Source: Candidatus Pacearchaeota archaeon (GTDB lineage: Archaea > Nanobdellota > Nanobdellia > Pacearchaeales > GW2011-AR1). From it: DNA of 32,000 nt. Under the pieces are notes generated by a model that was not told the DNA's origin, made no database searches, and saw only the letters and a program-made list of their open reading frames with translations. Where the stretch lies: the NCBI GenBank assembly GCA_018304985.1, contig JAGVWP010000041.1:5642-37641 (forward strand). The letters run 5' to 3'. How positions within the stretch are numbered: the first letter of the stretch is position 1; every line of letters begins with the position of its first letter. This document shows, one piece after another, positions 8,996 through 27,040 of the stretch. The translations under genes were made by a program, and so were the position numbers.

Positions 8996-8998
8996 TAA

Positions 8999-12310: not shown

Positions 12311-12315
12311 GGGGG

Positions 12316-12734: not shown

Positions 12735-15700
12735 ATGATAATAGTAAAAAAACAAATAAAAGCATTGAAATTTAGCCTGCTTAGCCCGGAGAAGATTAAA
12801 AAAATTTCATGCGCCAAGATAATCACTCCAGAACTTTATGATATGGACGGATATCCAGTTGATGGAGGCTTGATGGATTTAAGGCTTGGTGCCATAGATC
12901 CTGGAGTAAAATGCAGAACCTGCGGAGGAAGATTAAAAGAATGTCTAGGACATCCTGGAAGCATTGAATTTGCAAGGCCTGTTGTGCATGTAAAATATGT
13001 CCCGATAGTTTATACATTTTTAAGAAGTTTTTGCAATAACTGCGGAAGAATACTTTTAGATGAGGAAAATATAAAGAAATTAAGCCCTGCGCAAAGAATG
13101 AAAAAATCAAAAGATGCTAAGAAATGCCCTTACTGCCAGACTGTTCAGGAAAAAATCAGAATTGAAAAGCCAACATCATTCATGCTTGGAAAGAAAAGAA
13201 TTTTCCCGCCGGAAATAAGGGCAATTTTAGAAAAAATAACTGATGATGACTGCAGATTAATAGGAGTAAACCCAGAAACATTTAGGCCAGAATGGGGAAT
13301 TTTAACAGTTCTTTTAGTCCCTCCAGTAACTGTAAGACCAAGTATTACTTTAGAATCTGGAGAAAGAAGTGAAGATGACCTAACCCACAAGCTTGGAGAT
13401 ATAATAAGATCAAATCAAAGACTTTGGGAAAATTTGAATGCAGGAGCTCCAGAAGTTATTATTGATGATTTATGGGATTTGCTTCAATATCATGTTACAA
13501 CATTTTTTGACAATACAATTTCAAGAATTCCTCCTGCAAGGCACAGAAGCGGACAGCCATTAAAGACAATTACTGAAAGAATCAAAGGAAAAGAAGGAAG
13601 AATAAGGCATAACCTTGCTGGAAAAAGAGTTAATTTCTCATCAAGAACTGTAATTTCTCCTGATCCGTCTTTGCAAATAAATGAGGTTGGGATTCCTTAT
13701 GAGATTGCAGAAGTTCTTACAGTTAATGAAGAAGTTACTACACTTAATATGGAATATTTAAAAAAATTAATAATGGCAGATCATTATCCTGGAGCAAATT
13801 ATATTATAAGGCCTGATGGAAGAAGAAAGAAAATATCTCCTGAACTTAAAAAAGAAATAATTGAAGAGTTAAAACCAGGCTACTTTGTTGAAAGACATTT
13901 GCAAGACGGAGATATTGTATTATTTAACAGGCATCCGAGCCTTCACAGAGGAAGTTTAATGGCTCATTATGTAAAAGTTCTTCCTTACAGAACATTCAGG
14001 CTTCATCCGGCTGTTGTATTTCCGTATAACGCTGATTTTGACGGAGATGAAATGAATGTCCACGTACCTCAAACTGAAGAAGCAAGGGCAGAAGCAAGAA
14101 TTCTTTTAGATGTAAGCAAAAATTTAATGAGTCCGAAAAATAACACATCCCTAATAGGAACAATTACAGATGCTGTTACAGGAAATTATCTTCTGGGGTT
14201 AGCTGAAGTGACAAAGGCAGAAGCGCAGCAGCTTCTTTTTAATGCAGGAATTATCTTAAAACAGGATAAGAAAACCTTTAATGGTAAGGATGTATTTTTG
14301 GAAATTCTGCCACCAATCAGCAAGTCTCTTGCACAGGAAATTGAGAAAAAAGACCTAACACATGAATATACATTTGGAGTTGAAAATGAAAAAATTACAA
14401 AGCAGGTGGATAAAGAAATTGGAAGAGAAGAGACCATAAATGCGATTAAAAAAGCATTTACTCTTGGAACTAATTATCTTTCAAGAAGAGGATACACTAT
14501 TTCTCTTGAAGATATTAATGTTAATGAGAAAACGAAAAAGATAACACAGGATATTATAAAAGATGGTGAAGATAAAACAAAAGAAGTAATTGATTCTTAT
14601 AATAATGGATCTCTTGAAATTATCCCCGGCAAAACACTTGATGAATCACGGGAAATAAAAATACTTCAGACACTTAATGAAGTAAGAACAAAAATCGGTA
14701 AGGCTGTAAAAACAGAATTCCCTGAAGACAATCCTGTGAACCATATGATTATGTCGGGAGCTGGAGGAAATATCCTGAATATCACACAAATTGCCTGTTC
14801 AGTAGGGCAGAAATCTTTATGGTCTCAAAGAGTTAATTTTGGTTATAGTGAAAGGACATTATCATCATTCAAGCAGCATGATCTCTCTCCTAAAGCACAT
14901 GGATTTGTTTATTCTTCTTATATGAACGGCCTTCAGCCTCAGGAATTTTTCTTTGATGCAATTTCGGGAAGAGATGGATTAATGGATACTGCTTTAAGAA
15001 CTCCTAAATCCGGATATTTATACAGAAGATTGGCTAATGCCCTGCAAGACTTGAGAATTGAATATGATGGAACTGTAAGAGATGCTGTTGGGCAGATAAT
15101 TCAATTTAAATACGGAGATGATGGAATTGATGTTGCAGGAGCTCATTTTAATAAACAGGTTTCTCCTGGAGAGGCAATTGGAATTGTTACTGCGCAAAGT
15201 TTTGGAGAACCATCAACACAAATGGTATTGAATGTATTTCATTTTGCAGGAGTTCAGGAAATGCAGGTTACTTTAGGACTCCCAAGGCTTATAGAAATAT
15301 TTGATGCAAGAAAAATACCAACAACGCCTGCAATGGAAATTCATCTTGACAAGGATTTTAATGATGAGAAAGATGCAAAGGTTCTAGCAGAAAAAATAAA
15401 AGAAGCCAAGCTTAAAGAAATATTGTCTGAAGCAAAAATAAATTTCTCAGACAAAAAAATTGAATTTATTATTGACAATAAAGCGATAAAACACATACAT
15501 ATGTCAATAAACACTGTTGCTGAAAAAATTTCCGGGAAGGGCAAAATAAATGTTAAAAATGATTCTATAATCCTAAGTGTTCCAGATCTTGGATTTAAAG
15601 AAATTTACAAGCTCAAAGAAAAATTAAAGGAGAGCATAATTTCAGGAGTAAAGGGAATAAGGCAGGTTTTAATTGTAAAAAGAGAGAAAGGTTATGTAAT

Positions 15701-16211
15701 ACTTACAGCTGGATCAAATTTAGCAGAAATAATAAAAATCAAGGGAGTTAATCCTGAAAGAACAATTACAAATGATATTTATGAGATGGCAAATGTTTTT
15801 GGAATTGAATCTGCAAGGCAGGTTATTATGAATGAAATAAGGAAAGTTCTTGGATCACAGGGATTGGATATTGATGAAAGGCATTTAAAACTTGTAGCAG
15901 ATGCAATGACAATTGACGGAGAAATCAGAGGCATGACGAGAATGGGAATCATTGCAAGAAAAAGCAGTATTCTAGCCAAAGCAAGTTTTGAAACTCCTAT
16001 AAAACATTTTGTTAATGCTACAATTAAAGGAGGAAAGGACGAATTATTAAGTGTTATTGAAAATATCATTCTTAACCAGCCTGTTCCTGTTGGTACAGGG
16101 CTTCCTGGATTAATGGTTAAAATTACAGGCCCTTTAGTGAGGGAAAAAGGCAGGAAAACTGGGAAAAGGGAAAATAAAAACAATGAATATATAAATATAC
16201 CAAACATTTAA
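12735..16211 (+). CDS. rpoA: DNA-directed RNA polymerase subunit A, with A' and A'' parts fused in one ORF
   Basis: 1158 aa. N-terminal Zn site CRTCGGRLKECLGHPG, catalytic NADFDGDEMN, bridge helix GRDGLMDTALRTPKSGYLYRRL, then in the same frame the A''-type trigger loop AQSFGEPSTQMVLNVFHFAGV and GLPRLIEIFDAR. Confidence 0.95.
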   Translation: MIIVKKQIKALKFSLLSPEKIKKISCAKIITPELYDMDGYPVDGGLMDLRLGAIDPGVKCRTCGGRLKECLGHPGSIEFARPVVHVKYVPIVYTFLRSFCNNCGRILLDEENIKKLSPAQRMKKSKDAKKCPYCQTVQEKIRIEKPTSFMLGKKRIFPPEIRAILEKITDDDCRLIGVNPETFRPEWGILTVLLVPPVTVRPSITLESGERSEDDLTHKLGDIIRSNQRLWENLNAGAPEVIIDDLWDLLQYHVTTFFDNTISRIPPARHRSGQPLKTITERIKGKEGRIRHNLAGKRVNFSSRTVISPDPSLQINEVGIPYEIAEVLTVNEEVTTLNMEYLKKLIMADHYPGANYIIRPDGRRKKISPELKKEIIEELKPGYFVERHLQDGDIVLFNRHPSLHRGSLMAHYVKVLPYRTFRLHPAVVFPYNADFDGDEMNVHVPQTEEARAEARILLDVSKNLMSPKNNTSLIGTITDAVTGNYLLGLAEVTKAEAQQLLFNAGIILKQDKKTFNGKDVFLEILPPISKSLAQEIEKKDLTHEYTFGVENEKITKQVDKEIGREETINAIKKAFTLGTNYLSRRGYTISLEDINVNEKTKKITQDIIKDGEDKTKEVIDSYNNGSLEIIPGKTLDESREIKILQTLNEVRTKIGKAVKTEFPEDNPVNHMIMSGAGGNILNITQIACSVGQKSLWSQRVNFGYSERTLSSFKQHDLSPKAHGFVYSSYMNGLQPQEFFFDAISGRDGLMDTALRTPKSGYLYRRLANALQDLRIEYDGTVRDAVGQIIQFKYGDDGIDVAGAHFNKQVSPGEAIGIVTAQSFGEPSTQMVLNVFHFAGVQEMQVTLGLPRLIEIFDARKIPTTPAMEIHLDKDFNDEKDAKVLAEKIKEAKLKEILSEAKINFSDKKIEFIIDNKAIKHIHMSINTVAEKISGKGKINVKNDSIILSVPDLGFKEIYKLKEKLKESIISGVKGIRQVLIVKREKGYVILTAGSNLAEIIKIKGVNPERTITNDIYEMANVFGIESARQVIMNEIRKVLGSQGLDIDERHLKLVADAMTIDGEIRGMTRMGIIARKSSILAKASFETPIKHFVNATIKGGKDELLSVIENIILNQPVPVGTGLPGLMVKITGPLVREKGRKTGKRENKNNEYINIPNI

Positions 16212-16314
16212 AATAAACTTAACCAACTTTAAAAGTAAATCAATCTTAACTTAATAATGTCAAGTAGGATAAATGTAAAAATTATGGAAAAATATAGTAG
16301 TGATTCAAGAACCA

Positions 16315-16343
16315 TTTTGAAACTACACAACACTAAATTTCTC
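16315..16343 (+). repeat. element-2 copy (divergent)
   Basis: TTTTGAAACTACACAACACTAAATTTCTC. Its 3' part forms the hairpin TAAATTTCTC-TTTTAT-GAGAAATTTA (16334-16359). The reverse complement of 23984-24002 matches 16323-16343 with a 2-nt indel. Confidence 0.45.
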
Positions 16344-16466
16344 TTTTATGAGAAATTTAACTTTATTTATTAGTTAGTTTAGTTAAGTTAAACATATAAT
16401 TGATAAGCAATACTCGATAACACATAAAAATTTAAATTAATAAGATATAATAAGATAGAGTAAAAA

Positions 16467-16883
16467 ATGATTAAGACAATAGATATGAAGGTGATGAGAT
16501 ACATAAACTTATTCTCGAGAATAAGCGGGATAACCCCGAAGCACTGCTTTATTTATAATTCCACTGCCATATTTACCGTGCCTGAAAATAAATTGTCAAT
16601 GGCAATTGGAGATAATGGAAAAAATATAAAGCATATGAGCGAGATTATCCAGAAAAAGGTCAAGGTTGTTCTTATACCTAAAGATGTAAGTGATGCTGAA
16701 AAGTTTATTTCTACAATAATTTATCCCACTCAGATTAAAAGCGTTGAGATTAATGGAAATCAGCTTATTATTAATGCAGGACAGCAGAATAAGGCGATGT
16801 TAATCGGCAGAAACAAGTCGAGGCTTGAAGAGATAAGGAAAATAATCAAGGATTATTTTGGAAAGGAAGTCAAAATTGTTTAA
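16467..16883 (+). CDS. nusA: archaeal NusA-like termination factor (two KH domains)
   Basis: 138 aa. MRYINLFSRISGITPKHCF... and the GxxG-like loops IGDNGKNIKHM and IGRNKSRLEEI fit the archaeal NusA KH-KH pattern. Canonical position after rpoA. Confidence 0.8.
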   Translation: MIKTIDMKVMRYINLFSRISGITPKHCFIYNSTAIFTVPENKLSMAIGDNGKNIKHMSEIIQKKVKVVLIPKDVSDAEKFISTIIYPTQIKSVEINGNQLIINAGQQNKAMLIGRNKSRLEEIRKIIKDYFGKEVKIV

Positions 16884-16925
16884 TAATAAAGACAACCAAG
16901 GTTTTCTTTATGAAACTTTCCTTTT
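16882..16925 (+). repeat. motif-1 copy D; left arm of the inverted pair flanking the Skp-like ORF
   Basis: AATAATAAAGACAACCAAGGTTTTCTTTATGAAACTTTCCTTTT overlaps the nusA stop codon. 41/44 identical to the reverse complement of 17667-17710. Confidence 0.8.
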
Positions 16926-17016
16926 AAATTTTGATTTAATTATAAAGTGGTGGGAAAATTATTTATACTCATTCATATATATTACCTAATTTTTTAAGAT
17001 AAAAAAGAACAAAATA

Positions 17017-17454
17017 ATGAACTCAAAAAAATCGCTGACAAATATTTTAACTGCTAGCGCGGTAGGAATTGGTTCTGTTTTTGGAATTTATCCAAGTGTT
17101 TCTTTTGATGACTACAGGCCAAGAATTGAATTTGACAATATGGGAAAAGCTGAAGCGGTGACTCGTTACGGAGTTGAAAAAAAAGATGCGAAATATGCAA
17201 ACCCCGCATACATAGAATACAGCAAAGCGTTAACTGAGAGTAAGTATTACAAAGAATTGATAAAATTGAAAGAAAATGACACTAGAAGAGATAGAGTTTT
17301 AAGCCAATTGCTAACTAGTGTTAATAAGGCCTTGGCAGAATCTGCCGCAAAAGGCGGATATGACATCGTAGTTGACAAAGGTGATAAGGGATCAGATAAA
17401 TATACAGACATAACTGCAAAAGTCATAAAGAAACTGCAGGAGAACGAGAAATAA
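17017..17454 (+). CDS. Skp/OmpH-like secreted chaperone candidate
   Basis: 145 aa with N-terminal hydrophobic segment ILTASAVGIGSVFGIY. RIEFDNMGKAEAV and the C-terminal VNKALAESAAKGGYDIVVDKGD...YTDITAKVIKKL parallel E. coli Skp (KIAIVNMGSLF... and VKSVANSQDIDLVVDANAV...DITADVLKQV). Motif recall only. Confidence 0.5.
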   Translation: MNSKKSLTNILTASAVGIGSVFGIYPSVSFDDYRPRIEFDNMGKAEAVTRYGVEKKDAKYANPAYIEYSKALTESKYYKELIKLKENDTRRDRVLSQLLTSVNKALAESAAKGGYDIVVDKGDKGSDKYTDITAKVIKKLQENEK

Positions 17455-17666
17455 AAATAGTTTAGATTAAAAAATAAAAATAATAGCTTGTTCTGCCGAT
17501 TTTGTTCTGGAAATCAGGCATACAAGTTACTCTTGTTTGCTTCATCAACTCAGTACTCGTTGATTATGCAGTTATTTAGTAATTTGAAACTAACAAACCT
17601 GATAGTCTATAAATTAAAATCAGCTAAATTAAATAAATGTTAAACCAGGTTAAATTTTTTATTTAA

Positions 17667-17710
17667 GGAAGGAAAGTTTGATAAAGAAAACCTTGGTTGT
17701 CTTTATTATT
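17667..17710 (-). repeat. motif-1 copy E (inverted); right arm of the pair flanking the Skp-like ORF
   Basis: Reverse complement is AATAATAAAGACAACCAAGGTTTTCTTTATCAAACTTTCCTTCC. Confidence 0.8.
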
Positions 17711-17728
17711 GTATACTTTTCAAACTTA

Positions 17729-17765
17729 ATTTTTGATATCATACCATATCCTTGCCTCATTTTAA
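17729..17765 (+). repeat. element-2 copy
   Basis: TTTTTGATATCATACCATATCCTTGCCTCATTTTAAT. Confidence 0.5.
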
Positions 17766-17829
17766 TGTATAAGCCACCGATATTTTGCCAATTAACAACT
17801 CAGATTCTGTAAGGTTAAAAAGTGATGGC

Positions 17830-17943
17830 TTTTTAAGGCTTAATCCACTTAAATATAGTCGTTTTAGAAGCTCAATTTTTATGCTAATAAATTTACTAAA
17901 AAATTAAAATTTCTATTTTTAAGGCTTAATTTACTTAAATTTA
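17830..17943. repeat. two ~27-nt direct repeats TTTTTAAGGCTTAAT(C/T)(C/T)ACTTAAAT, 86 nt apart
   Basis: Copies at 17830-17856 and 17916-17943, in the 3' spacer of the secretin-like gene. Confidence 0.7.
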
Positions 17944-18036
17944 ATACTTTCATCAGTTTCATCATTACAAAATATCACCCGTAGAGTTAACAGAACCACA
18001 ACTCAATACTTTAATATTATATAAATTATATAAGAT

Positions 18037-19473
18037 TTATTGTCTTTTTAGCCTTTTGAAAAATCCTTTATTTTCACTTTTTTCTTGTTTAACTGGTTGA
18101 ATATTTAACTCTTCAATTAAAGGTTCTTGTATTCTTTCCTGCATTCCAACAGAATCTTGCCTATCTATATCGTGAACTTCCATGAAATACAGCAGTTCAG
18201 AAGTATTTTTCTCAATTTCTCTCGATGTTGTAGCGCTTTTAATCAAAGGAATTTTATTCAATCCGGGAATGCCTCTGTTAACGGATTTATATCGGGTGTT
18301 TGTTGATGTTCCTATAAGATAGGTTGCCCCATTTTGCAAACAAAATTCAGATGTAAGATTTGCTTCTCTAAACACAGGCACTTGTTCTTTGCCTACTAAG
18401 GCAATTGATTCGCCTGATTTTGCTTCAAGTAATTTTATTGTTGTAAAACCCTTTTCATTTGCGAAGGGAGATAATTTTAATTGCGGGCCGACTTCCCGGT
18501 ATTGCGTTCCTATAACAATTGCTGCTGCAGGAGTTAAAGAGGTTTGTTGGTATGGCACGGCATTAATATTTCTAAATTCTGCAGTTGTTCCATTTGAAAC
18601 AATAACATCTGTATCAGATAAGGTTTCTGTTCTTCCATGGCTGTCAAGGAATTTTATCGCGCCCTCATATGTCCACTTGTTAGGCGCTCTTCCCAAAATT
18701 GTAAAATTTCCGTTTCCATCTTTGTTGAGAAATGGATTAACAGAAATACCTGTTGTTAATGGATTGCCTTGAGGGTTGCTTGGCAACAACAAGCTAAAAG
18801 CACTCATGCCATTTTTCAAAATTTTCAAGGCCATATCTCTATCATAAGTATTATCATTAAAATATTCCACTATTTTTAGCCTTATCCTTATTTGTTTAGG
18901 TTCTATATCAAAATTATTAATTAATCTTGAAATTAAGCCAAAATTTTCCCCGAATTTAACATCCTGCCCCCGAAATAACAGCATATTTTGTGAAGGATAA
19001 GGAGTTATTTCAACATCCGGGGCTGGCGGGAGGTATTTAGCAAGAATAGCTGCAATATCTGGAGCAGCATTTCTGCAGCGATATGAAATTAAAACATCGC
19101 CCTTGCCATCGTTATTTCCGTCTAAATCAATATAATTCGCATTAATCTCTGGTATAAAAAATGCTCCATTGTTTTTTGCCTCCGGTGTTTCTCCCTGAAG
19201 ATATGCCCTGTTATTTGCAATTGTATATGGATGGGAAGTTGCATGCCTTGATTCATCATTATGGAGTTTTTGAGACGCCTCATTCATCGCTGGAGGCTCT
19301 AAATTCAAGTTTTCATCATTTCTTAAAACTTCATGAACCGGATCATTTAATGCGCTGCTTAAATACTTAACTTCATCTTTTAGATTTCTAAAAGTCGCGC
19401 AACCTGCAAAAGTGTAAATCATCAAGCCAGCCAATCCTGTTGAAATACCTTTTTTAACTCGGCCTGTTATCAT
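18037..19473 (-). CDS. secretin-family (GspD/PilQ/CpaC-like) lipoprotein candidate
   Basis: 478 aa. N-terminal hydrophobic stretch ends in the lipobox-like TFAGC. FDIEPKQIRIRLKIVEY matches the LD..QV.IE..IVEV boundary motif. C-terminal blocks IKFLDSHGRTETLSDTDVIVSNGTTAEFRNINAVPY, YREVGPQLKLSPF, VPVFREANLTSEFCLQNGATYLIG and NRGIPGLNKIPLIKS...NTSELLYFMEV follow the order of secretin-domain blocks. Confidence 0.65.
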   Translation of the reverse strand: MITGRVKKGISTGLAGLMIYTFAGCATFRNLKDEVKYLSSALNDPVHEVLRNDENLNLEPPAMNEASQKLHNDESRHATSHPYTIANNRAYLQGETPEAKNNGAFFIPEINANYIDLDGNNDGKGDVLISYRCRNAAPDIAAILAKYLPPAPDVEITPYPSQNMLLFRGQDVKFGENFGLISRLINNFDIEPKQIRIRLKIVEYFNDNTYDRDMALKILKNGMSAFSLLLPSNPQGNPLTTGISVNPFLNKDGNGNFTILGRAPNKWTYEGAIKFLDSHGRTETLSDTDVIVSNGTTAEFRNINAVPYQQTSLTPAAAIVIGTQYREVGPQLKLSPFANEKGFTTIKLLEAKSGESIALVGKEQVPVFREANLTSEFCLQNGATYLIGTSTNTRYKSVNRGIPGLNKIPLIKSATTSREIEKNTSELLYFMEVHDIDRQDSVGMQERIQEPLIEELNIQPVKQEKSENKGFFKRLKRQ

Positions 19474-19527
19474 TTTTATTTAATGAATCTTTTATCTTTA
19501 GTGTTATCATTTTTCAGAGGCACTTGG

Positions 19528-19536
19528 TATTTAAAC
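19528..19536 (-). promoter_or_regulatory. candidate TATA box for the secretin-like gene
   Basis: Minus-strand GTTTAAATA lies ~55-60 nt upstream of the ATG at 19473. Confidence 0.3.
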
Positions 19537-19762
19537 ACTTATAGGCATAAAAATATGCTTTTCAGTGAGGTATATTTTGTTATTGAAAATCAATGAAAAC
19601 AAAAAGTATATTGTGGGAAGTATATATTGGGAAGCATATTATCATTAATATACAACTTAAAAATATTGAAAGATAACTAAATATTATTCTAGAAAGGAGT
19701 CAGGATTGTTTAGAAAATTCTTTTAGGTAATTTATATATGGTTAGATAATTAAATTAATATA

Positions 19763-19798
19763 TTCTGAAAATATTGCAATAATTTTACCTGACTTATT
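19763..19798 (+). repeat. element-2 copy
   Basis: TTCTGAAAATATTGCAATAATTTTACCTGACTTATT. Confidence 0.6.
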
Positions 19799-19852
19799 CA
19801 ATGTATTATGTAAGTTTAATTAGTTAATCAATAAGTATCAGCTACTTACCCT

Positions 19853-19889
19853 AATAAATCAGGCAAAGGTATGGGGTGATATCAGAAAT
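19853..19889 (-). repeat. element-2 copy, inverted relative to 19763-19798
   Basis: Reverse complement is ATTTCTGATATCACCCCATACCTTTGCCTGATTTATT. Its CCTGA(C/T)TTATT arm is complementary to the arm at 19786-19798. Confidence 0.6.
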
Positions 19890-19950
19890 TAATTTTAAAA
19901 ATATTATAATAATTTCTTTATGATATTACACTCGCAAAAACTTCAGCACA

Positions 19951-19960
19951 AGATTTAAAA
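19951..19960 (+). promoter_or_regulatory. BRE/TATA of rps12 (AGATTTAAAA)
   Basis: The TATA box ends 24 nt before the ATG at 19984, consistent with a leaderless or near-leaderless transcript. Confidence 0.55.
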
Positions 19961-19983
19961 ACCATCCTCAATTGTGTAGAATT

Positions 19984-20406
19984 ATGGGGTTAATGAATGC
20001 TAGAAAAATCATAAAGAAAAGCAATAAATTTAGATGGAGAGAGCATAAATATAAATCCAGAATGCTTAATCTTTATGCTAAAGCAGATCCTTTAGAAGGA
20101 GCTAGCCAAGCCAAAGGATTAGTAATTGAAAAAGTCCAAAAAGAAGCAAAACAACCAAATTCTGCGATGAGAAAATGTTGCAAAGTGCAGCTGACTAAAA
20201 ACGCCAAGACAGTTACTGCATTTATTCCTGGCAATTTAGCGCAGAGATTTATTGATGAGCATGATGAAGTTGTAATAGAAAGAATTGGCGGAAAGCAGGG
20301 AAGAACAAAAGGAGATATTCCGGGAGTCAGATTTCAAGTTATAAAAGTAAATGACCAACCTTTAAGACTATTAGTTAAAGGGAAGATAGAAAAGGGAAGA
20401 AGATAA
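19984..20406 (+). CDS. rps12: 30S ribosomal protein S12
   Basis: [45 protein letters not shown]...[27 protein letters not shown] is the archaeal S12 pattern. Start placed at the first ATG; the ORF track starts at a TTG at 19972. Confidence 0.93.
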
Positions 20407-20410
20407 AAAT

Positions 20411-20450
20411 AAAAAGAACCTACGGTTCTCTTTATGAACTCTCCCTTGAG
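20411..20450 (+). repeat. motif-1 copy F, just after the rps12 stop
   Basis: AAAAAGAACCTACGGTTCTCTTTATGAACTCTCCCTTGAG, with the perfect hairpin AGAACC-TAC-GGTTCT. Confidence 0.6.
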
Positions 20451-20652
20451 AAAAATAAAAAAACGAAAAATAAATATTCAAATGAGACATATCAGAGAAA
20501 TTACTCATGAATATGAAACAGCATTTAAAGGATATATTGAAGGCAAATCAATATTTTATATTGATAGGAAAGAAAATAAAGCAATGGAAAGGGCTTCAGA
20601 ATATGAGGAGTATATGAGATCATTAAATAATAATACAAAAGACGAATATTAA
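20434..20652 (+). CDS. hypothetical 72-aa protein between rps12 and rps7
   Basis: ORF only. Its ATG lies inside motif-1 copy F (alternative ATG at 20482), and its stop lies 1 nt before the rps7 ATG. Confidence 0.35.
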   Translation: MNSPLRKIKKRKINIQMRHIREITHEYETAFKGYIEGKSIFYIDRKENKAMERASEYEEYMRSLNNNTKDEY

Positions 20653-20653
20653 A

Positions 20654-21286
20654 ATGGAACAAACACATGAACAAACTGAAAAACAAGACAAAGAAAAAAT
20701 GATGGTATTTGACCTATATGATATAAACGAAGTTTCGGTTAATGATGCTGGCTTGAAAAATATAATTAATCTTGATTTCAAGCTTGTTATCAAGTCAAGA
20801 GGAAAAATAAGAGAAAGATTTGGAAAAACAAAAGTTAATATTATTGAGAGACTTATTAATTATATTGCAGTTCCTGGCCACAGAGGAAAAAAGCATAAAG
20901 TAATTACAAGCTGGGCAAGCGGAAAATATAATTCAAATACAGATATTGTTCTTGCAGCATTTAAAATAATTAACGAGAAAACAAAACAAAATCCTATACA
21001 GGTTTTAGTTAATGCTATTGAAAAAGGATCACCAAGAGATGAAGTTACAATGATTCAGTATGGAGGAGCAAGATATCCGCAAGCTGTTGACTGCTCGCCA
21101 CATAGAAGAGTATCACTTGCAATAAGAAATATTGTTCATGGCGCGCAGGACAAGGCATTTAACAAGAAAAAAAAGTTTTCTCAGACACTTGCAGAAGAGA
21201 TAATTGCAACTGCAAACAGCTCGGGAGACAGCTTTGCATATTCAAAAAAGAACGATCTTGAAAAGCAGGCTGACGGGGCGAGATAA
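20654..21286 (+). CDS. rps7: 30S ribosomal protein S7
   Basis: IIERLINYI..PGHRGKK, NPIQVLVNAIEKGSPRDEVT.IQYGGARYPQAVD.SP.RRV.LAIRNI and a C-terminal KK.DLEKQA matching the archaeal S7 pattern. Confidence 0.93.
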   Translation: MEQTHEQTEKQDKEKMMVFDLYDINEVSVNDAGLKNIINLDFKLVIKSRGKIRERFGKTKVNIIERLINYIAVPGHRGKKHKVITSWASGKYNSNTDIVLAAFKIINEKTKQNPIQVLVNAIEKGSPRDEVTMIQYGGARYPQAVDCSPHRRVSLAIRNIVHGAQDKAFNKKKKFSQTLAEEIIATANSSGDSFAYSKKNDLEKQADGAR

Positions 21287-21304
21287 AAAATCTGAAAAAG
21301 TTTA

Positions 21305-21438: not shown

Positions 21439-21930
21439 TTAACTCACCAACTTCACAAAATTATCCCTAGCAGAATTAACTTTTTCATTACTTAATTCAC
21501 TTATTAATAACTTCATTTTAACTAAAAAATCTTCGGTTTTTAAGATCATTTCATTGCATGATTCTTTAGTTACCTTAACTATTTGCTGAGTTTCTACATA
21601 ATATTGTTTGTCTATTCTTTCTTCTTTAGCCCAAGAAATTATTTTTACTAGTCCTTTATTTTCAGATAATTTATCAAATAGAATTATTGATGCAGAATGA
21701 TTCTCAGATTTAATTCCAATTTTGAATAATAAAGATAGTAATGAATTATACATACAATAATAAGCTTCAGAAGTGGAATTCTCGTAAAGTTGGCTCTGAA
21801 ATAATATCTTTGCCGATTTAAGACAGTTATCTGCTTTAATCAGATAGGAAGATTTCATCTCTTCTGAAGATTCGACAAGTTCAATTACTCCTTTTCTTTT
21901 AAGCTTCTTTAAAAAATTCAACTCTTTCAT
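21439..21930 (-). CDS. HEPN-domain protein (putative toxin of an MNT-HEPN pair)
   Basis: 163-aa helical ORF, 32-nt overlap with the upstream NTase gene. The region KSAKILFQSQLYENSTSEAYYCMYNSLLSLLFKIGIKSENHS resembles PF05168-type HEPN proteins. Confidence 0.55.
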   Translation of the reverse strand: MKELNFLKKLKRKGVIELVESSEEMKSSYLIKADNCLKSAKILFQSQLYENSTSEAYYCMYNSLLSLLFKIGIKSENHSASIILFDKLSENKGLVKIISWAKEERIDKQYYVETQQIVKVTKESCNEMILKTEDFLVKMKLLISELSNEKVNSARDNFVKLVS

Positions 21931-22468
21931 AAAAATCCTCCAACCCTCTTATAATTATATGATTCTTTATAATTTCTTTAATTAATAAAGATTTAGTATC
22001 AAATTTCCCTATTTTAATACTCAATTTAGAATTTATATCTTTCACGCTATTTTTTATATTATTATCATTAGTTTCTAAATAAATATCAATATCACTTTCC
22101 TTCTTTGGAACTCCTTTAGCATAACTTCCAAATAAGATTATCATTCCTTTTGAGAAATCTTTTTTAATATCCTCTAAAATTATGGATAATTCTGGATGTT
22201 TTTTCAATAGACTATTTAATTTGTGAATTTCAGCAGAATAAATATAATTTTTAGATTTTAAATTATTTTTAATAAAAAATATTTTATTTTTACCTTCTTT
22301 CTTATAATCTAAGACATTCTCCTTTAATAATTCATTAATTTTTCTTAGGATTGTGGAGTGGGATTCATTGAGAGTTCTTGCTATCTCTCTTAGATGAGAT
22401 TTATTCTTTAACAAAACCAATATTATTTCTAATTCTAAATTGTTCTTATTTTGAACCATATGTATCAT
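21899..22468 (-). CDS. winged-helix HTH fused to a minimal nucleotidyltransferase (MNT-type antitoxin)
   Basis: N-terminal ArsR-like wHTH (SHLREIARTLNESHSTILRKINELLKENVL) followed by the NTase signature MIILFGSYAKGVPKKESDIDIYL. Confidence 0.7.
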   Translation of the reverse strand: MIHMVQNKNNLELEIILVLLKNKSHLREIARTLNESHSTILRKINELLKENVLDYKKEGKNKIFFIKNNLKSKNYIYSAEIHKLNSLLKKHPELSIILEDIKKDFSKGMIILFGSYAKGVPKKESDIDIYLETNDNNIKNSVKDINSKLSIKIGKFDTKSLLIKEIIKNHIIIRGLEDFYERVEFFKEA

Positions 22469-24256: not shown

Positions 24257-27040
24257 ATGGCACAAGAAGAAAAAAAAGCACAAAAGATTGAAAGGCTGAC
24301 TAATAACCAAGAAACTATCAGAAATATCTGCACATCTGCGCATATACACCATGGAAAATGCATTAGCGGAGACTCAAGAGTTATGCTATCAGATGGCAGC
24401 GCAATAACTGCCAGAGAGGTATATGAAGAAGTTGCAAAAAATGGCAAGAGATATGAGGATAATGAAGAACATACAGTATTCATACCTAGAGACAAAATAA
24501 CTATATTCTCCTTAAATAAAGAAACTGGGAGCATTGAAAAGAAGCTTGTTCAGTATGTCTGGAGGCTTAAAGGTGGCAATACAATAAAAACAACTTTAAG
24601 AAATGGATTTGAAATATCAACAACGCCAGAACATAAGTATATAATTTTTGAAAGTATGAAATTCACTGAAAAACCTGCCTGTGAATTAAAAATTAATGAT
24701 TTAATAGTTTGTGCAAGGAATATTGACTTCTTTTGGAAAGAAAAAAAAGCTAATAAAGAATATTATAATTATAATAAAATCGAAATTGATAATGGAAATG
24801 GTCAAAAGTTAATTCAATTATTAAAGAATCCTTATAATGATCTAGCATTTGTTGAAGTTAAAAAAATAGAAGCAGGTTTTGAAGAGGTTGTTTATGATTT
24901 TACAATTCCTGAAACACATAATTTCATTGCAGAAGGAATGGTTATATGCAATACAGCCTTCACAGACAATCTATTGGCAGCTGCAGGAATGATGGCTGCA
25001 AAATCAGCCGGAGATTTAGAAGCTGGAATGGCAACATGGCAGCATTCAGATGAGCAGGAAAGATTAATGACTGTTGATGCTGCAAATGTTTCAATGGTTC
25101 ATGATTTTCACGGCAAGGAATATTTAATTAATTTAATTGACACTCCTGGACATGTTGATTTTTCTGGAAATGTAACAAGAGCTATGAGAGCTATTGATGG
25201 CACGATTGTTTTAGTCTGCGCAAGCGAAGGAATCATGCCACAAACAGAAACTGTTTTAAAACAGGCATTAAGAGAAAGAGTTAAGCCAATTTTATTTATT
25301 AACAAAGTTGACAGGCTGATTAAAGAGCTGAAAATGACTCCTGAGCAAATGCAGGAAAGATTTATCAAGATTTACAAAGATTTTAATAAATTAATTGAGA
25401 GAATTGCAGAGCCTGAATACAAGGAAAAATGGCAGGTTGATATTAATGAAGGAAGTGTTGCTTTTGGAAGCGCCAGAGATAATTGGGCATTATCACTTCC
25501 GTTTATGAAAAAAAAGGGAGTTACTTTCAAAAATATCTTTGAATTATACAGTATGGATGAAGAGCAAAGAAAAGAATGGACATGGAAAAATGCCCCTTTA
25601 TTCGAAGTAATTTTAGATATGAGCATCAAGCATCTTCCAAACCCAATTGAAGCTCAGAAATACAGAATTCCAAAAATCTGGCATGGAGATTTAGAAAGTG
25701 AATTCGGAAAGAGTTTGCTTAATTGCGATCCAAAAGGAGAATTAGCATTTATAATTACAAGAATTGTTATTGATCCAAGATCTGGGAAAGAAATTTCAGC
25801 AGGAAGATTATTTTCAGGCAGTTTAGAACCGGGAATGGAAGTTTATCTTAATAATGAGAAAAAAAATCAAAGAGTTCAGCAGGTTCTTGTTTATAATGGA
25901 ATAAAACCGGAGCAGGTTGAACATATTCCTGCTGGAAATGTTCTTGCAATTGCAGGAATTGTTGGAGATGTTGGAGAAACAATAACCTTGAAACCAGAAA
26001 CACCTTTTGAAGAAATTAAGCATATTTTTGAGCCAGTTATTACAAAAGCTATTGAGCCGAAGAAAATGGTTGATTTGCCAAAGCTTGTAGAAGTTTTAAG
26101 AAAAGTTGTAAAAGAAGATCCAAGCCTAAAAGTTGAAATTAATGAGGAAACAGGAGAGAATCTTGTTTCAGGAATGGGAGAACTGCATTTAGAAATTATT
26201 GAAAACAGAATAACAACTGAAAAAGGGCTGGAGATTAAAACTTCTCCTCCGATTGTAGTTTACAGAGAGACGGTTGTAAGAAAATCCAAGGTTCAGGAAG
26301 GAAAATCTCCCAACAAACATAATTCTTTTTTCATAACTGTTGAGCCTTTAGAAGATGAAGTTTATGATGCAATTAAGAAAGGAGAAATTTCAGAAAGAAG
26401 ATATAAGAAAAGAGATGACACAATGTTCAAAAAATTATCTGAATTGGGCATTTCAAACGATGAGATAAGAAATGTCAGAGATGTTTACAAAGGATGTGTT
26501 TTTTTAGATGACACAAGGGGAGAAGTGCATATGATTGAAGTAATTGACTTGGTTTTAGATGCTTTTGAGCAGGTTATTGATGCAGGGCCTTTAGCAAGAG
26601 AGCCGTGCATGAAAATGAAACTAAGGCTTGCGGATATAAAACTTCACGAAGATGCAATTCATAGAGGGCCTGCGCAGGTTTATCCTGCAATAAGAGATTC
26701 TATTTCAAGCGCTATGAGAGATGCTGCAATTTCGCTTTTTGAGCCACTGCAAGTTCATTTAATTGAAGCGCCTTCAGAATACATGAGCACTGTTACTAAA
26801 TTAGTTTCAAGCAAGAGGGGGCAGTTAATTGATGTTCAGCAGGATGAAGTTGGAGTTAAAGTAACTGCAAAACTGCCTGTAGCTGAAATGTTAGGATGGA
26901 GCAGTGATTTAAGATCAGCAACAGAAGGACGAGGTGTTTCAAGTTTAGAAGACCAAAGCTTTGAAAAAATGCCAACTGAATTGCAATCAGAAGCTGTGAG
27001 AAAAATCAGAAACAGAAAAGGATTGGCGGAGAATCAATAA
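24257..27040 (+). CDS. fusA: translation elongation factor aEF-2, precursor containing one intein
   Basis: IRNI...AHIHHGK | intein | TAFTDNLLAAAG restores the G1 P-loop. Also DTPGHVDF, NKVDR and the diphthamide-loop motif HEDAIHRGPAQ. 927 aa minus 198 aa gives ~729 aa, the normal aEF-2 size. Confidence 0.95.
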   Translation: MAQEEKKAQKIERLTNNQETIRNICTSAHIHHGKCISGDSRVMLSDGSAITAREVYEEVAKNGKRYEDNEEHTVFIPRDKITIFSLNKETGSIEKKLVQYVWRLKGGNTIKTTLRNGFEISTTPEHKYIIFESMKFTEKPACELKINDLIVCARNIDFFWKEKKANKEYYNYNKIEIDNGNGQKLIQLLKNPYNDLAFVEVKKIEAGFEEVVYDFTIPETHNFIAEGMVICNTAFTDNLLAAAGMMAAKSAGDLEAGMATWQHSDEQERLMTVDAANVSMVHDFHGKEYLINLIDTPGHVDFSGNVTRAMRAIDGTIVLVCASEGIMPQTETVLKQALRERVKPILFINKVDRLIKELKMTPEQMQERFIKIYKDFNKLIERIAEPEYKEKWQVDINEGSVAFGSARDNWALSLPFMKKKGVTFKNIFELYSMDEEQRKEWTWKNAPLFEVILDMSIKHLPNPIEAQKYRIPKIWHGDLESEFGKSLLNCDPKGELAFIITRIVIDPRSGKEISAGRLFSGSLEPGMEVYLNNEKKNQRVQQVLVYNGIKPEQVEHIPAGNVLAIAGIVGDVGETITLKPETPFEEIKHIFEPVITKAIEPKKMVDLPKLVEVLRKVVKEDPSLKVEINEETGENLVSGMGELHLEIIENRITTEKGLEIKTSPPIVVYRETVVRKSKVQEGKSPNKHNSFFITVEPLEDEVYDAIKKGEISERRYKKRDDTMFKKLSELGISNDEIRNVRDVYKGCVFLDDTRGEVHMIEVIDLVLDAFEQVIDAGPLAREPCMKMKLRLADIKLHEDAIHRGPAQVYPAIRDSISSAMRDAAISLFEPLQVHLIEAPSEYMSTVTKLVSSKRGQLIDVQQDEVGVKVTAKLPVAEMLGWSSDLRSATEGRGVSSLEDQSFEKMPTELQSEAVRKIRNRKGLAENQ
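24359..24952 (+). mobile_element. mini-intein (198 aa) in the aEF-2 P-loop
   Basis: Block A CISGDSRVMLSDG, block B GFEISTTPEHKYII (T..H), block F VVYDFTIPETHNFIAEG, block G MVICN followed by +1 Thr. No LAGLIDADG or HNH endonuclease motifs in the ~80-aa linker. Confidence 0.85.

What the first reader, a model, noticed from the sequence alone, without database searches (positions are those of the whole stretch)
18037..19473. Secretin-family lipoprotein encoded inside an archaeal core gene cluster
Seen: the 478-aa minus-strand ORF has a hydrophobic N-terminus ending in a lipobox-like FAGC. It has an N-domain-like segment (RCRNAAPDIAAILAKYL...NMLLFRG...LISRLINNFD) and the boundary motif FDIEPKQIRIRLKIVEY. 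Its C-terminal third follows the order of secretin-domain blocks, ending in NRGIPGLNKIPLIKS...SELLYFMEV (compare the bacterial GIP.L..IP.LG.LF....ELLIFITP signature). Established: secretins (GspD, PilQ, CpaC/RcpA, InvG, phage pIV) are multimeric outer-membrane channels of diderm bacteria. Archaea normally have one membrane and are not known to use secretins. Context: the gene sits between nusA and rps12 of an unmistakably archaeal operon and shares its AT-rich codon usage and the same intergenic repeat modules, so a bacterial mis-binning artefact is unlikely. Inference: either a horizontally acquired channel repurposed by an episymbiotic archaeon (for example to perforate or dock onto a host envelope), or evidence of an unrecognised outer compartment. 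No cognate pilus or T2SS ATPase is in this window.
Basis: partly seen in the sequence, partly recalled or inferred. Interest (0 to 1): 0.85.

Follow-up and report, generated by a model that had tools for sequence, protein, structure and literature searches.

The report
Secretin channel gene in DPANN archaea
A small symbiotic-type archaeon (Pacearchaeota) carries a true, well-conserved homologue of the bacterial outer-membrane "secretin" pore next to a Skp-like chaperone gene, inside its RNA-polymerase/ribosomal gene cluster. Archaea are not known to use secretins, so this points to an undescribed envelope or cell-to-cell channel.

Summary
The 478-aa minus-strand ORF (18037-19473) passes the Pfam Secretin threshold (68.3 bits; cut-off 27.5). 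A family profile aligns to solved PilQ and GspD from the last N-domain to the C-terminus. All 40 significant Foldseek hits of its AlphaFold model are secretins.

It is not an assembly or binning artefact:
- GC and codon usage match the neighbouring genes.
- An independent assembly is colinear across both junctions.
- The insertion nusA-[Skp-like gene > < secretin]-rps12 recurs in six species-level Pacearchaeota/Woesearchaeota lineages, whose secretins are 40-87% identical to this one.

The family has about 35 sequences at the clustering levels searched. It is monophyletic, on a long branch, and was found only in archaeal contexts wherever context could be read. It has an invariant lipobox cysteine and is under purifying selection (dN/dS 0.21).

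It encodes an exported Skp/OmpH-like protein that accompanies the secretin in those six lineages.

No pilus, T2SS or phage assembly gene lies within about 10 kb in any locus. No paper in the searchable library describes archaeal secretin homologues.

Best reading: a self-piloting lipoprotein secretin forming a gated multimeric surface channel. Which lipid layer it inserts into is unresolved.

The parts
18037..19473 (-). Secretin-family gene: 478 aa plus the stop codon at 18037-18039.
   Evidence: ORF. Pfam Secretin 68.3 bits against GA 27.5. PDB profile hits to PilQ, GspD, pIV and RcpA. Foldseek top 40 hits are all secretins. dN/dS 0.21 against the 87%-identical orthologue.
19399..19473 (-). 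Signal peptide ending in the lipobox FAG-C (aa 1-25). The Cys25 codon is at 19399-19401.
   Evidence: The sequence shows a basic n-region, a hydrophobic h-region, then [G/A/S]-C. Cys25 is invariant in 22 homologues. SignalP/LipoP was not run.
19099..19398 (-). Linker and N-terminal region (aa 26-125). It holds conserved short motifs (HEVFRxDExKN; NxRAY) but is modelled with low confidence.
   Evidence: Invariant R51, N57, R89 and P97. pLDDT is below 50 for aa 1-78.
18904..19098 (-). Single N3-like (ring-building) domain, aa 126-190.
   Evidence: The model shows beta-alpha-beta-beta-alpha with pLDDT 68-84. The PDB profile alignment starts in the last N-domain of PilQ and GspD. Pfam Secretin_N scores only 15.8 bits, below threshold.
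18175..18894 (-). Secretin C-domain, aa 194-433. It comprises the first barrel strand (QIRIRLKIVEYF), a roughly 70-aa lip-region insert (aa 208-280), the gate and inner-barrel blocks, and the RGIPGLNKIPLI ... ELLYFMEV motif.
   Evidence: Pfam PF00263 covers aa 276-433. Residue-level alignment to PilQ. Long beta-strands at 281-436 in the model. Conserved blocks across the family.
18040..18153 (-). Variable, charged C-terminal tail (aa 441-478). No S-domain (pilotin-binding) similarity was found.
   Evidence: Unaligned and variable in the family alignment. pLDDT below 50.
17017..17454 (+). Skp/OmpH-like exported protein (145 aa), convergent with the secretin gene.
   Evidence: Pfam OmpH 31.5 bits (GA 32.4), E 2.5e-7. 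The distant orthologue in L001 also hits OmpH at 24.2 bits. The five best PDB hits of the family profile are all Skp/OmpH (E 7e-4 to 0.02, C-terminal 57 aa only). It is adjacent and convergent to the secretin in six lineages. Signal peptides are Sec-type or Tat-type (RRDFLK/RRDFMK). dN/dS 0.12.
19528..19535 (-). TATA-like octamer (TTTAAATA on the minus strand), about 55 nt upstream of the secretin ATG. It is a candidate archaeal promoter element.
   Evidence: Read directly from the sequence. Inference only, not tested.
17669..17720 (-). Copy of the genome's post-gene hairpin module (AATAAAGACAACCAAGGTTTTCTTTAT), in minus orientation about 320 nt downstream of the secretin stop. It is a possible 3' end or terminator of the secretin transcript.
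   Evidence: 52-nt inverted repeat, 90% complementary, with the copy just after nusA at 16872-16923. The same hairpin folds in copies after rpoB, nusA and EF-2.
16467..16883 (+). Archaeal NusA (KH-only), the left boundary of the conserved insertion.
   Evidence: KH_2 and KH_5 domains. Synteny.
19972..20406 (+). Ribosomal protein S12, the right boundary of the conserved insertion.
   Evidence: Ribosom_S12_S23 at 136.9 bits. Synteny.

Best explanation
The ORF encodes a genuine, functional member of the secretin superfamily that has become a resident, vertically inherited gene of one Pacearchaeota (DPANN) lineage.

Shown:
- It has a signal peptide with an invariant lipobox cysteine.
- It has one divergent N3-like domain and a complete secretin C-domain.
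- It has no detected N0 domain and no S-domain similarity.
- It is under purifying selection.
- It is always paired, tail to tail, with a gene for an exported Skp/OmpH-like protein.

Inferred mechanism:
1. The pre-protein is exported by Sec.
2. It is lipid-anchored at Cys25 by the archaeal lipoprotein pathway (AliA/AliB-type).
3. The Skp-like chaperone keeps it assembly-competent outside the cytoplasmic membrane.
4. It then self-assembles, without BAM or a pilotin, into a 12-15-mer gated double beta-barrel. This would resemble bacterial self-piloting 'liposecretins' and the BAM-independent PulD.
5. The ring forms a large gated conduit at the cell surface.

Where the barrel sits is not resolved. 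The two leading options are the membrane of a partner (host) cell at the contact site, and a so-far unseen outer layer of the archaeon itself. I weight these two about equally.

The confidence of 0.6 applies to the whole statement including the inferred channel mechanism. The identification as a native, selected archaeal secretin homologue alone I put at about 0.95.
For: Identity:
- Pfam Secretin 68.3 bits against 27.5; 22 of 22 family members hit it.
- The profile aligns with PilQ and GspD over N3 plus the secretin domain, including the IPxLxxIP and ELLxF blocks.
- Foldseek's top 40 hits are all secretins.

Resident and functional:
- Codon usage and GC match native genes.
- dN/dS is 0.21 for the secretin and 0.12 for the Skp-like gene.
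- The nusA-[skp-like > < secretin]-rps12 arrangement occurs in six species-level lineages.
- The family is monophyletic with no bacterial sequence inside it.
- There is a sharp score gap, 223-639 bits within the family against at most 118 bits for all other secretins.
- Members are named Pacearchaeota or Woesearchaeota by depositors. Their contigs carry archaeal markers: RpoH, Kae1 and GatD.

Lipoprotein:
- Cys25 is invariant.
- Lipobox proteins and AliA are reported as prevalent in DPANN (PMC12462473).

Chaperone:
- OmpH/Skp similarity comes from three sources.
- The Skp-like proteins carry Sec or Tat signal peptides.

Self-assembly is plausible:
- PulD inserts into liposomes without BAM (PMC4604470).

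Precedent for a secretin-like barrel at a DPANN-host interface:
- Cryo-ET shows a 21-nm barrel 'reminiscent of secretin' in the envelope of a DPANN cell (PMC11329633). That is a different lineage, and no protein was assigned to it.
Against: - No multimer, membrane location or substrate has been shown. Every step after 'it is a secretin homologue under selection' is inference.
- No type IV pilus, T2SS, T3SS or phage assembly ATPase, pilin or platform gene lies within about 10 kb in any of roughly 10 distinct loci.
- No N0 domain was detected, so there is no known way to couple the ring to a membrane platform.
- The Skp similarity is weak. It covers only the C-terminal ~57 aa, is just below Pfam's cut-off, and the AF2 model is unusable at pLDDT 52.6.
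- The AF2 monomer of the secretin has mean pLDDT 57, and the lip region (aa 208-280) is unmodelled. The presence of a membrane-inserting belt is therefore untested.
- Pacearchaeota have never been imaged, so nothing is known about their envelope.
- Three subfamily loci lack the Skp-like neighbour.
Confidence: 0.6

Rival explanations
1. Classical role in the archaeon's own envelope. These Pacearchaeota would have a second, outer lipid layer or a tight pseudo-periplasm. The secretin would be the exit portal for an archaeal type IV filament or for secreted proteins, as PilQ and GspD are in diderm bacteria. The motor genes would be encoded elsewhere in the genome.
For: - A soluble exported Skp-like chaperone only makes sense in a confined extracytoplasmic compartment.
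- In bacterial liposecretins the lipid anchor and the barrel sit in the same outer membrane (established knowledge: HxcQ, BfpB).
- In a sister subfamily, the secretin is followed co-directionally by a membrane-anchored protein with a roughly 200-aa coiled coil and an FG-GAP-like C-terminus. That protein could span a wide periplasm-like gap.
- Double-membraned archaea exist, for example Ignicoccus (PMC6349945).
Against: - No BamA, Lpt, Lol or Tol-type gene and no pilus gene is seen near any family member.
- No double membrane has been reported for this lineage.
- No N0 domain is present to dock on a platform.
- Whole genomes could not be searched with the tools available here.
Confidence: 0.3
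2. Contact-dependent channel in the partner cell. The lipid-anchored N-terminus would stay on the archaeon while the beta-barrel end inserts spontaneously into the membrane of the attached host. For a bacterial host this would be the outer membrane. The result would be a gated conduit for taking up metabolites, lipids, DNA or proteins.
For: - DPANN are typically obligate ectosymbionts with reduced genomes, and Pacearchaeota abundance correlates with bacterial communities (PMC6349945).
- Secretins such as PulD insert into protein-free liposomes without BAM (PMC4604470).
- A linker of roughly 100 aa after the lipid anchor would allow the barrel to reach away from the cell.
- No own-envelope partner genes are linked to it.
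- A secretin-like barrel has been seen at a DPANN-host contact by cryo-ET (PMC11329633).
Against: - This is purely inferential.
- No host is known for this lineage.
- In the cryo-ET case the barrel is 21 nm wide, sits in the DPANN envelope, and has no assigned protein.
- A freely diffusible Skp-like chaperone is hard to reconcile with an open extracellular site.
Confidence: 0.3
3. Assembly or binning artefact, or a recent and functionless bacterial or phage insertion. This would include a filamentous-phage pIV gene on a provirus.
For: - Secretins are otherwise bacterial or phage proteins.
- PHROG 'protein IV of M13' is hit at 50 bits.
- One homologue's contig is labelled 'Paceibacterota bacterium' by its depositor.
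- The synonymous divergence of the secretin/Skp module against L007 (dS 0.28-0.36) is lower than that of flanking core genes (0.74-1.9). This could mean more recent exchange.
Against: - Colinearity with an independent assembly holds across both junctions.
- The same insertion occurs in six lineages down to 40% identity.
- Codon usage is native.
- dN/dS is 0.21.
- No family member occurs in 2.9 million IMG/VR viral contigs.
- No phage genes are adjacent.
- The 'Paceibacterota' contig carries archaeal RpoH, RpoB, RpoA, EF-2 and EF-1alpha.
- The pIV hit is weaker than the PilQ and GspD hits.
Confidence: 0.03
4. An exapted secretin fold with a non-channel role. Examples would be a surface-anchored ring used as an adhesin or scaffold, or a pore placed in the archaeon's own cytoplasmic membrane from outside.
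For: - It is a divergent long-branch family with a family-specific roughly 70-aa insert in the lip region and conserved N-terminal motifs that have no bacterial counterpart.
- No partner machinery is linked to it.
Against: - All canonical secretin-domain blocks, including the gate region and the IPxLxxIP / ELLxF motifs, remain conserved. This argues that the barrel and gate architecture is retained.
- Secretins mislocalised in a cytoplasmic membrane are toxic in bacteria (established knowledge: the PulD/Psp response).
Confidence: 0.12

Closest known systems
Self-piloting lipoprotein secretins ('liposecretins') of bacteria: HxcQ (Pseudomonas T2SS), BfpB and TcpC (type IVb pili)
   Same: - N-terminal lipobox cysteine on the secretin itself.
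- No S-domain, so no separate pilotin-binding tail.
- Short N-terminal module.
- BfpB (PDB 9u5s) is among the Foldseek hits at E 1.2e-13.
   Different: - The bacterial proteins sit in a true outer membrane.
- They are encoded in operons with pilus or T2SS ATPases, platforms and pilins.
- Here the host is an archaeon, no such genes are linked, and the neighbour is a Skp-like gene.
PilQ (type IVa pilus/competence secretin) and GspD (T2SS secretin)
   Same: - These give the best sequence matches: PDB 9sh1 and 4av2 PilQ at E ~1e-15, 5wq7 GspD at 1.7e-14, and NCBIfam PilQ and GspD partial hits.
- The alignment spans the last N-domain, the barrel, the gate and the C-terminal motif.
   Different: - Scores fall far below the NCBIfam family cut-offs: 53.7 against 284 for PilQ, and 45 against 351 for GspD.
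- No N0, N1, N2, AMIN or STN domains are present.
- It is 478 aa, against 600-760 aa for these proteins.
Filamentous-phage pIV
   Same: - A minimal secretin (N0 plus N3 plus the secretin domain) of about 400 aa.
- Hit by PHROG 1012 and PDB 7ofh.
   Different: - No phage context.
- No Zot/pI-type ATPase nearby in this lineage.
- Absent from IMG/VR.
- The lip region is about 70 aa, against about 36 aa in phage secretins (PMC8563730).
Mitochondrial T2SS secretin (GspD) of some protists
   Same: This is the precedent for secretin-family proteins operating outside Bacteria (PMC8134430, listed).
   Different: - The mitochondrial system retains other T2SS core genes (GspE/F/G).
- It sits in an organelle with a bacterial-type outer membrane.
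Skp/OmpH periplasmic chaperone (for the neighbour gene)
   Same: - Exported, small (about 120 aa mature).
- The C-terminal 'GYD(I/L)VV(D/E)K ... DIT..VI' block aligns with Skp and OmpH.
   Different: - Only the C-terminal third matches.
- It falls below the Pfam cut-off by 0.9 bit.
- In bacteria skp sits next to bamA and lpxD, not next to a secretin.
- A trimeric jellyfish fold has not been shown.

Membership tests
Secretin superfamily (PF00263; GspD/PilQ/InvG/pIV/RcpA) | C-terminal secretin domain scoring above the curated threshold | tested here: met
   68.3 bits against GA 27.5, covering profile positions 2-165 of 169. All 22 family members hit it.
Secretin superfamily | Conserved blocks of the barrel and gate, and the C-terminal (G)IPxLxxIPxxG ... 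ELLxFxxP motif | tested here: met
   RGIPxLNKIP and (S/Q)(E/Q)LLYF(I/M)E are conserved family-wide and align to the PilQ VPLLGDIPVIG ... ELLIFITP. The final Pro is replaced by Glu/Ala.
Secretin superfamily | Protomer fold (long antiparallel beta-sheets of the outer and inner barrels) | tested here: met
   The top 40 Foldseek PDB hits are all secretins (E 6.7e-15 to 9.8e-10, probability 1.0). TM-scores are low (0.2-0.3) because the monomer model has mean pLDDT 57.
Secretin superfamily | At least one N-domain (Secretin_N / N3 ring-building motif) preceding the barrel | tested here: inconclusive
   Pfam Secretin_N scores 15.8 bits, below GA 28.2, and no member hits it at E <= 0.01. However, the profile alignment to PilQ and GspD starts in N3, and the model has beta-alpha-beta-beta-alpha at aa 126-190.
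Secretin superfamily | N0 (TonB-dependent-receptor-plug-like) domain that couples the ring to the inner-membrane platform | tested here: not met
   No Pfam or NCBIfam match and no PDB alignment lies N-terminal to profile position ~110. Some Tad and T4b secretins also lack N0 (established knowledge), so N0 is not universal in the family.
Secretin superfamily | Export signal | tested here: met
   A basic and hydrophobic N-terminus ends in [G/A/S]-Cys, with the Cys invariant. Judged by inspection only; SignalP/LipoP was not available.
Secretin superfamily | Homo-oligomer of 12-15 subunits forming a gated channel | not testable with these tools
   Only monomer AF2 was available.
Secretin superfamily | Resides in the outer membrane of a diderm cell | not testable with these tools
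   The organism is an uncultured archaeon whose envelope is unknown.
T2SS / T4P / T3SS / Tad / filamentous-phage export systems (as a system) | Genetic linkage to a secretion ATPase, platform protein and pilins, or to phage pI | tested here: not met
   None occurs in the 32-kb window or within +/-8-10 kb in about 10 distinct loci. A DUF87/HerA-like ATPase lies two genes downstream in one sister subfamily only.
Skp/OmpH (PF03938), for ORF 17017-17454 | Match to the OmpH profile above the curated threshold | tested here: inconclusive
   31.5 bits against GA 32.4, C-terminal part only. The L001 orthologue scores 24.2 bits. The PDB top 5 hits are all Skp/OmpH at E 7e-4 to 0.02. The database's precomputed Pfam annotation lists PF03938 for P0026-P0028.
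Skp/OmpH | Exported (signal peptide) | tested here: met
   Sec-type hydrophobic N-terminus in the window copy. Twin-arginine RRDF(L/M)K signals in L021 and L011. Judged by inspection.
Skp/OmpH | Trimeric beta-barrel body with alpha-helical tentacles | tested here: inconclusive
   The AF2 model has mean pLDDT 52.6 from a shallow alignment. It was not searched further.

The most novel reading that the evidence does not exclude
A clade of DPANN archaea uses a bacterial-type secretin, chaperoned by an exported Skp-like protein, to build a large gated pore in a second lipid bilayer. That bilayer would be either the membrane of the host cell it sits on, giving an inter-domain or inter-cell conduit, or a previously unrecognised archaeal outer membrane. 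Either case would be the first functional secretin in Archaea and a molecular handle on how ultrasmall episymbionts breach or bridge envelopes.
Probability: 0.45. Interest if true: 0.92.

Novelty: new variant of a known kind. Interest (0 to 1): 0.75.

Why it matters
Secretins are textbook markers of the diderm bacterial envelope, and archaeal type IV filament systems are defined as lacking them.

A conserved, selected secretin plus a Skp-like gene in Pacearchaeota therefore suggests one of two things:
- these uncultured archaea have an envelope compartment nobody has seen; or
- they have turned a self-inserting bacterial pore into a tool for host contact.

How DPANN and CPR episymbionts exchange material with hosts is a long-standing open question. 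This family offers a concrete, expressible protein to test. It could be used for multimerisation assays, liposome insertion, cryo-EM, and immunolabelling in groundwater enrichments. It is also an example of a bacterial envelope module being fixed inside the most conserved archaeal gene cluster.

Tried and rejected
1. Chimeric contig or mis-binning: rejected. Evidence is colinearity with L007, synteny in six lineages, and native codon usage.
2. Phage or provirus origin: no family member in IMG/VR and no phage genes nearby.
3. Identifying a bacterial donor:
   - An NJ tree of 149 representatives puts the family on a long isolated branch with no sister group.
   - The nearest HMM neighbours are a mix. 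P0046 and P0048 are themselves in archaeal contexts, while P0053 and P0180 are bacterial.
   - P0046 is an orphan.
4. A bacterial 'Skp-like plus short secretin' operon as the source (L019): the upstream 164-aa ORF is not significantly Skp-like (hhalign probability 3%).
5. Structure of the Skp-like protein: the AF2 model is too poor to use.
6. Looking for pilins or ATPases in the window's small ORFs: only HicAB-like and unknown proteins were found.
7. Literature: six searches found no description of archaeal or DPANN secretin homologues. Apparent hits in nanohaloarchaea papers were the word 'secreting'.
8. The low dS of the module against its flanks might indicate recent exchange. Nucleotide identity is similar across the region (82-91%), so I leave it as an unexplained observation.
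Full report
**1. What is there**

It matches Pfam Secretin (PF00263) at E 7.8e-19 and 68.3 bits, against a gathering score of 27.5. The match spans aa 276-433 and nearly the whole profile, positions 2-165 of 169.

NCBIfam gives only partial, far sub-threshold hits to PilQ, GspD, SctC and MshL. The protein is therefore a secretin, but not a member of any curated functional subfamily.

A profile of 22 homologues hits 20 solved secretins. PilQ 9sh1 scores E 2.4e-15 and GspD 5wq7 scores 1.7e-14; pIV and RcpA are also hit. The residue-level alignment runs from the last N-domain through the barrel to the IPxLxxIP / ELLxF motif.

The AlphaFold2 monomer has mean pLDDT 57. The N3-like unit (aa 126-190) and the long strands of aa 281-436 reach 65-84. 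Its 40 best Foldseek PDB matches are all secretins at probability 1.00, and the next hit has E 0.03.

Pfam Secretin_N is sub-threshold at 15.8 bits, and none of the 22 members hits it at E <= 0.01. The N-domain is therefore divergent, and I found no N0 domain. The C-terminal 38 aa are variable and charged, with no S-domain similarity.

**2. The signal and lipobox**

The N-terminus has a basic stretch, then a hydrophobic stretch, and ends in FAG-C. The cysteine is invariant in all 22 aligned homologues, and position -1 is always G, A or S. I could not run SignalP or LipoP.

Lipobox proteins are reported to be prevalent in DPANN, and a lipidation enzyme family (AliA, arCOG02177) is present there (PMC12462473). 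A lipid anchor is therefore biologically plausible in this host.

**3. It is archaeal and native, not an artefact**

The window carries these genes:
- Rpb2-type RpoB (8999-12274)
- a single-ORF Rpb1-type RpoA (12735-16211)
- KH-only NusA
- S12 and S7
- an intein-containing EF-2
- EF-1alpha

The exact Skp-like neighbour protein is deposited as J4466_05705 from 'Candidatus Pacearchaeota archaeon'.

The secretin gene has GC 0.36 and GC3 0.26. Its synonymous-codon usage correlates at 0.91 with the rest of the window, like rpoB, S12 and EF-2.

The genome's own intergenic modules flank it. One is a conserved hairpin module found right after rpoB, nusA and EF-2. It recurs in minus orientation about 320 nt downstream of the secretin stop. 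Other modules upstream of S12 recur before EF-2 and EF-1alpha.

An independent MAG contig (JACPLR010000005.1, locus L007) is colinear over window 8559-17529 and 18043-21301 at 82-88% nucleotide identity.

**4. A conserved archaeal family and a conserved insertion**

The 5.8-billion-protein search returned 23 close relatives at 34-100% identity. Where named, they are Pacearchaeota, and the next hits are only at E ~1e-4.

The exhaustive representative search shows 19 representatives at 223-639 bits. Scores then drop sharply to at most 118 bits for the remaining ~14,600 secretins.

In an NJ tree of 149 representatives, the 35 family members are monophyletic on a long branch, with no outsider inside.

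GTDB species representatives carrying the gene are all labelled Pacearchaeota or Woesearchaeota, with one exception. That one is labelled 'Paceibacterota bacterium', but its 389-kb contig carries RpoH, RpoB, RpoA, NusA, S12, S7, EF-2 and EF-1alpha. Other member contigs carry archaeal Kae1 and GatD.

The arrangement nusA - [Skp-like >] [< secretin] - rps12 is present in six lineages:
- the window
- L007/L008 (87% identity)
- L020 (46%; two extra genes inserted)
- L001/L009/L026 (44%)
- L010/L021 (41%; nusA side)
- L011/L022 (40%; rps12 side)

An insertion into the most conserved archaeal gene cluster that persists to 40% protein identity indicates old, vertical inheritance.

Against L007, dN/dS is 0.21 for the secretin and 0.12 for the Skp-like gene. 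No member was found in IMG/VR.

**5.

ORF 17017-17454 (+), 145 aa, is convergent with the secretin.

The evidence for Skp/OmpH similarity is consistent but weak, and limited to the C-terminal ~57 aa:
- It hits Pfam OmpH at 31.5 bits, 0.9 bit below the cut-off (E 2.5e-7).
- Its 31%-identical orthologue in L001 hits OmpH independently at 24.2 bits.
- A family profile's five best PDB hits are all Skp/OmpH proteins, at E 7e-4 to 0.02.
- NCBIfam gives Skp at E 8.7e-4.

The family is exported. The window copy has a Sec-type signal, and the copies in L021 and L011 have twin-arginine RRDF(L/M)K signals.

AF2 on the shallow permitted alignment gave pLDDT 52.6, which is unusable. I call this protein 'Skp-like' and do not file it as a Skp family member.

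**6. What is not there**

No secretion or pilus ATPase, platform protein, pilin, pilotin, BamA, Lpt or Lol gene occurs in the window. None occurs within 8-10 kb of the secretin in the roughly 10 distinct loci examined.

Two sister subfamilies sit elsewhere in the genome.
- One lies between a ferredoxin gene and two unknown genes, in a contig that also has bacterial-type GroES/GroEL.
- The other is followed co-directionally by a protein of 380-396 aa. That protein has an N-terminal membrane anchor, a coiled coil of about 200 aa and an FG-GAP-like 'DFNGDGxxDL' C-terminus. Nearby are a DUF87/HerA-like ATPase and several lipobox-bearing DUF4056 paralogues.

**7. Mechanism**

Shown: this is a complete secretin domain with gate and barrel blocks, under purifying selection, with an invariant lipobox cysteine, co-inherited with an exported Skp-like protein.

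Inferred sequence of events:
1. Sec export.
2. Lipid anchoring at Cys25.
3. Chaperoning by the Skp-like protein.
4. BAM- and pilotin-independent self-assembly into a gated 12-15-mer.

Step 4 follows the behaviour of PulD, which inserts into liposomes without any assembly machinery (PMC4604470). It also follows bacterial liposecretins such as HxcQ and BfpB (my own knowledge). BfpB is among the fold hits.

The location of the barrel is unresolved. I see two roughly equal options.
- (a) The membrane of an attached partner cell. This is consistent with the DPANN lifestyle, with the reported correlation of Pacearchaeota with bacterial communities (PMC6349945), with the absence of linked own-envelope machinery, and with the linker of about 100 aa after the anchor.
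- (b) An own outer layer or confined pseudo-periplasm. This is consistent with a soluble periplasm-type chaperone and with the long coiled-coil partner seen in the sister subfamily.

A 21-nm 'secretin-like' barrel has been seen by cryo-ET in the envelope of another DPANN (ARM-1), docking a host nanotube. No protein was assigned to it (PMC11329633). This is a lead, not evidence for this family.

**8. Comparison with known systems, and novelty**

The family works most like a minimal, self-piloting liposecretin. By sequence it is closest to PilQ and GspD, but it fails their family thresholds by a wide margin. It lacks N0 and lacks the linked machinery that defines T2SS, T4P, T3SS, Tad and phage export systems.

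Secretins outside Bacteria are so far known from mitochondria of some protists, where other T2SS genes are retained (PMC8134430).

Six full-text searches found no description of archaeal secretin homologues. A 2026 survey of archaeal type IV filament machineries mentions secretin only in the context of the bacterial PilY.

The proteins are in public databases as 'hypothetical protein' with an automatic PF00263 tag. The sequences are therefore not new, but the recognition of a conserved archaeal secretin/Skp-like module appears to be.

I rate it a new variant of a known kind. Interest is 0.75: high surprise for envelope and DPANN specialists and directly testable, but with no functional evidence yet.

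**9. Caveats**

- The NJ tree is crude and cannot identify a donor.
- Two more distant short secretins (P0046, which also has a lipobox, and P0048) also sit in archaeal contexts. They do not group with this family and look like separate, sporadic acquisitions.
- The module's synonymous divergence against L007 (dS 0.28-0.36) is lower than that of the flanking core genes (0.74-1.9). I cannot explain this.
- Whole genomes could not be scanned, so 'no partner machinery' applies only to about 10 kb on each side.

Noticed in passing
window 12261-12310, 16872-16923, 27030-27079 (+); 17669-17720 (-); related, partial copies near 8275-8312 and 4683-4719: A family of ~50-nt intergenic modules (AATAAAAGACAACCAAGGTTTTCTTTATGAAACTTTCCTTTT) begins at or just after the stop codons of rpoB, nusA and EF-2. 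In the four full copies folded (after rpoB, nusA and EF-2, and the minus-strand copy at 17669-17720) the same small hairpin forms, followed by a T/C-rich tail; the partial copy near 8275-8312 folds differently. Copies also occur at several sites in the related genome L007. It is probably a terminator or RNA-processing element, or a MITE-like repeat.
   Followed up: partly
window 17530-18042: The spacer between the Skp-like and secretin genes is about 330 nt longer than in the 87%-identical relative L007. The extra DNA holds the inverted hairpin-module copy and a 52-nt direct repeat pair (17830-17881 and 17916-17967). It looks like a small repeat insertion.
   Followed up: partly
window 17017-19473 compared with L007: Synonymous divergence of the secretin (dS 0.36) and Skp-like gene (0.28) is 2-5 times lower than that of flanking nusA, S12 and rpoA (0.74-1.9), although amino-acid divergence is higher. 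Possible causes are more recent recombinational exchange of the module, or different codon constraints.
   Followed up: no
window 24257-27040: The EF-2 gene carries an intein (Intein_splicing, aa 45-232). The orthologues in L001 and L007 are 729 aa and lack it.
   Followed up: no
window 12735-16211 and 8999-12274: RpoA is encoded as one 1158-aa ORF with Rpb1 domains 1-5, rather than split into A' and A''. RpoB is also unsplit. The same holds in all related loci, at 1145-1167 aa.
   Followed up: no
window 1379-2319, 21439-22468, 28053-28497: Three small toxin-antitoxin-like pairs are present: HepT/MNT, HEPN/nucleotidyltransferase, and a HicB/HicA-like pair read from the sequence. The middle pair has very low GC (0.22-0.27) and is inserted between S7 and msrA.
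   Followed up: no
L004 9417-13524; L006 6372-7514 and 9407-12622; L023: In a sister secretin subfamily, the secretin is followed co-directionally by a 380-396-aa protein. That protein has a membrane anchor, a ~200-aa coiled coil and an FG-GAP-like 'DFNGDGxxDL' end. A DUF87/HerA-like ATPase and two or three lipobox-bearing DUF4056 paralogues follow. These are candidate partner proteins of archaeal secretins.
   Followed up: partly
L014 5898-6992; L015 192-1328 / L016 2149-3285: Two other short secretins (364 and 378 aa) lie in archaeal contexts. One sits next to L21e, RpoF, S13, S4, S11 and RpoD; the other is near RpoN and SecDF. The 364-aa one has an LTGC lipobox. They do not group with the Pacearchaeota family, and P0046 is an orphan. 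Secretin acquisition by DPANN-like archaea may have happened more than once.
   Followed up: partly
L012 4740-6616; L004 14368-14619; window 4728-5162: Several bacterial-type genes occur in these archaeal contigs: GroES/GroEL (789 bits to the GroEL equivalog), CsrA and NrdR. This suggests substantial bacterial gene influx into this lineage.
   Followed up: no
alignment A1, C-termini of P0005, P0021, P0022: Three distant family members end in a similar '(S)LLL(K/P)' C-terminal tetrapeptide after an otherwise unalignable tail. It may be a sorting or recognition motif.
   Followed up: no
window 20434-20652: A 72-aa ORF with no family match sits between rps12 and rps7 and is conserved in L007.
   Followed up: no
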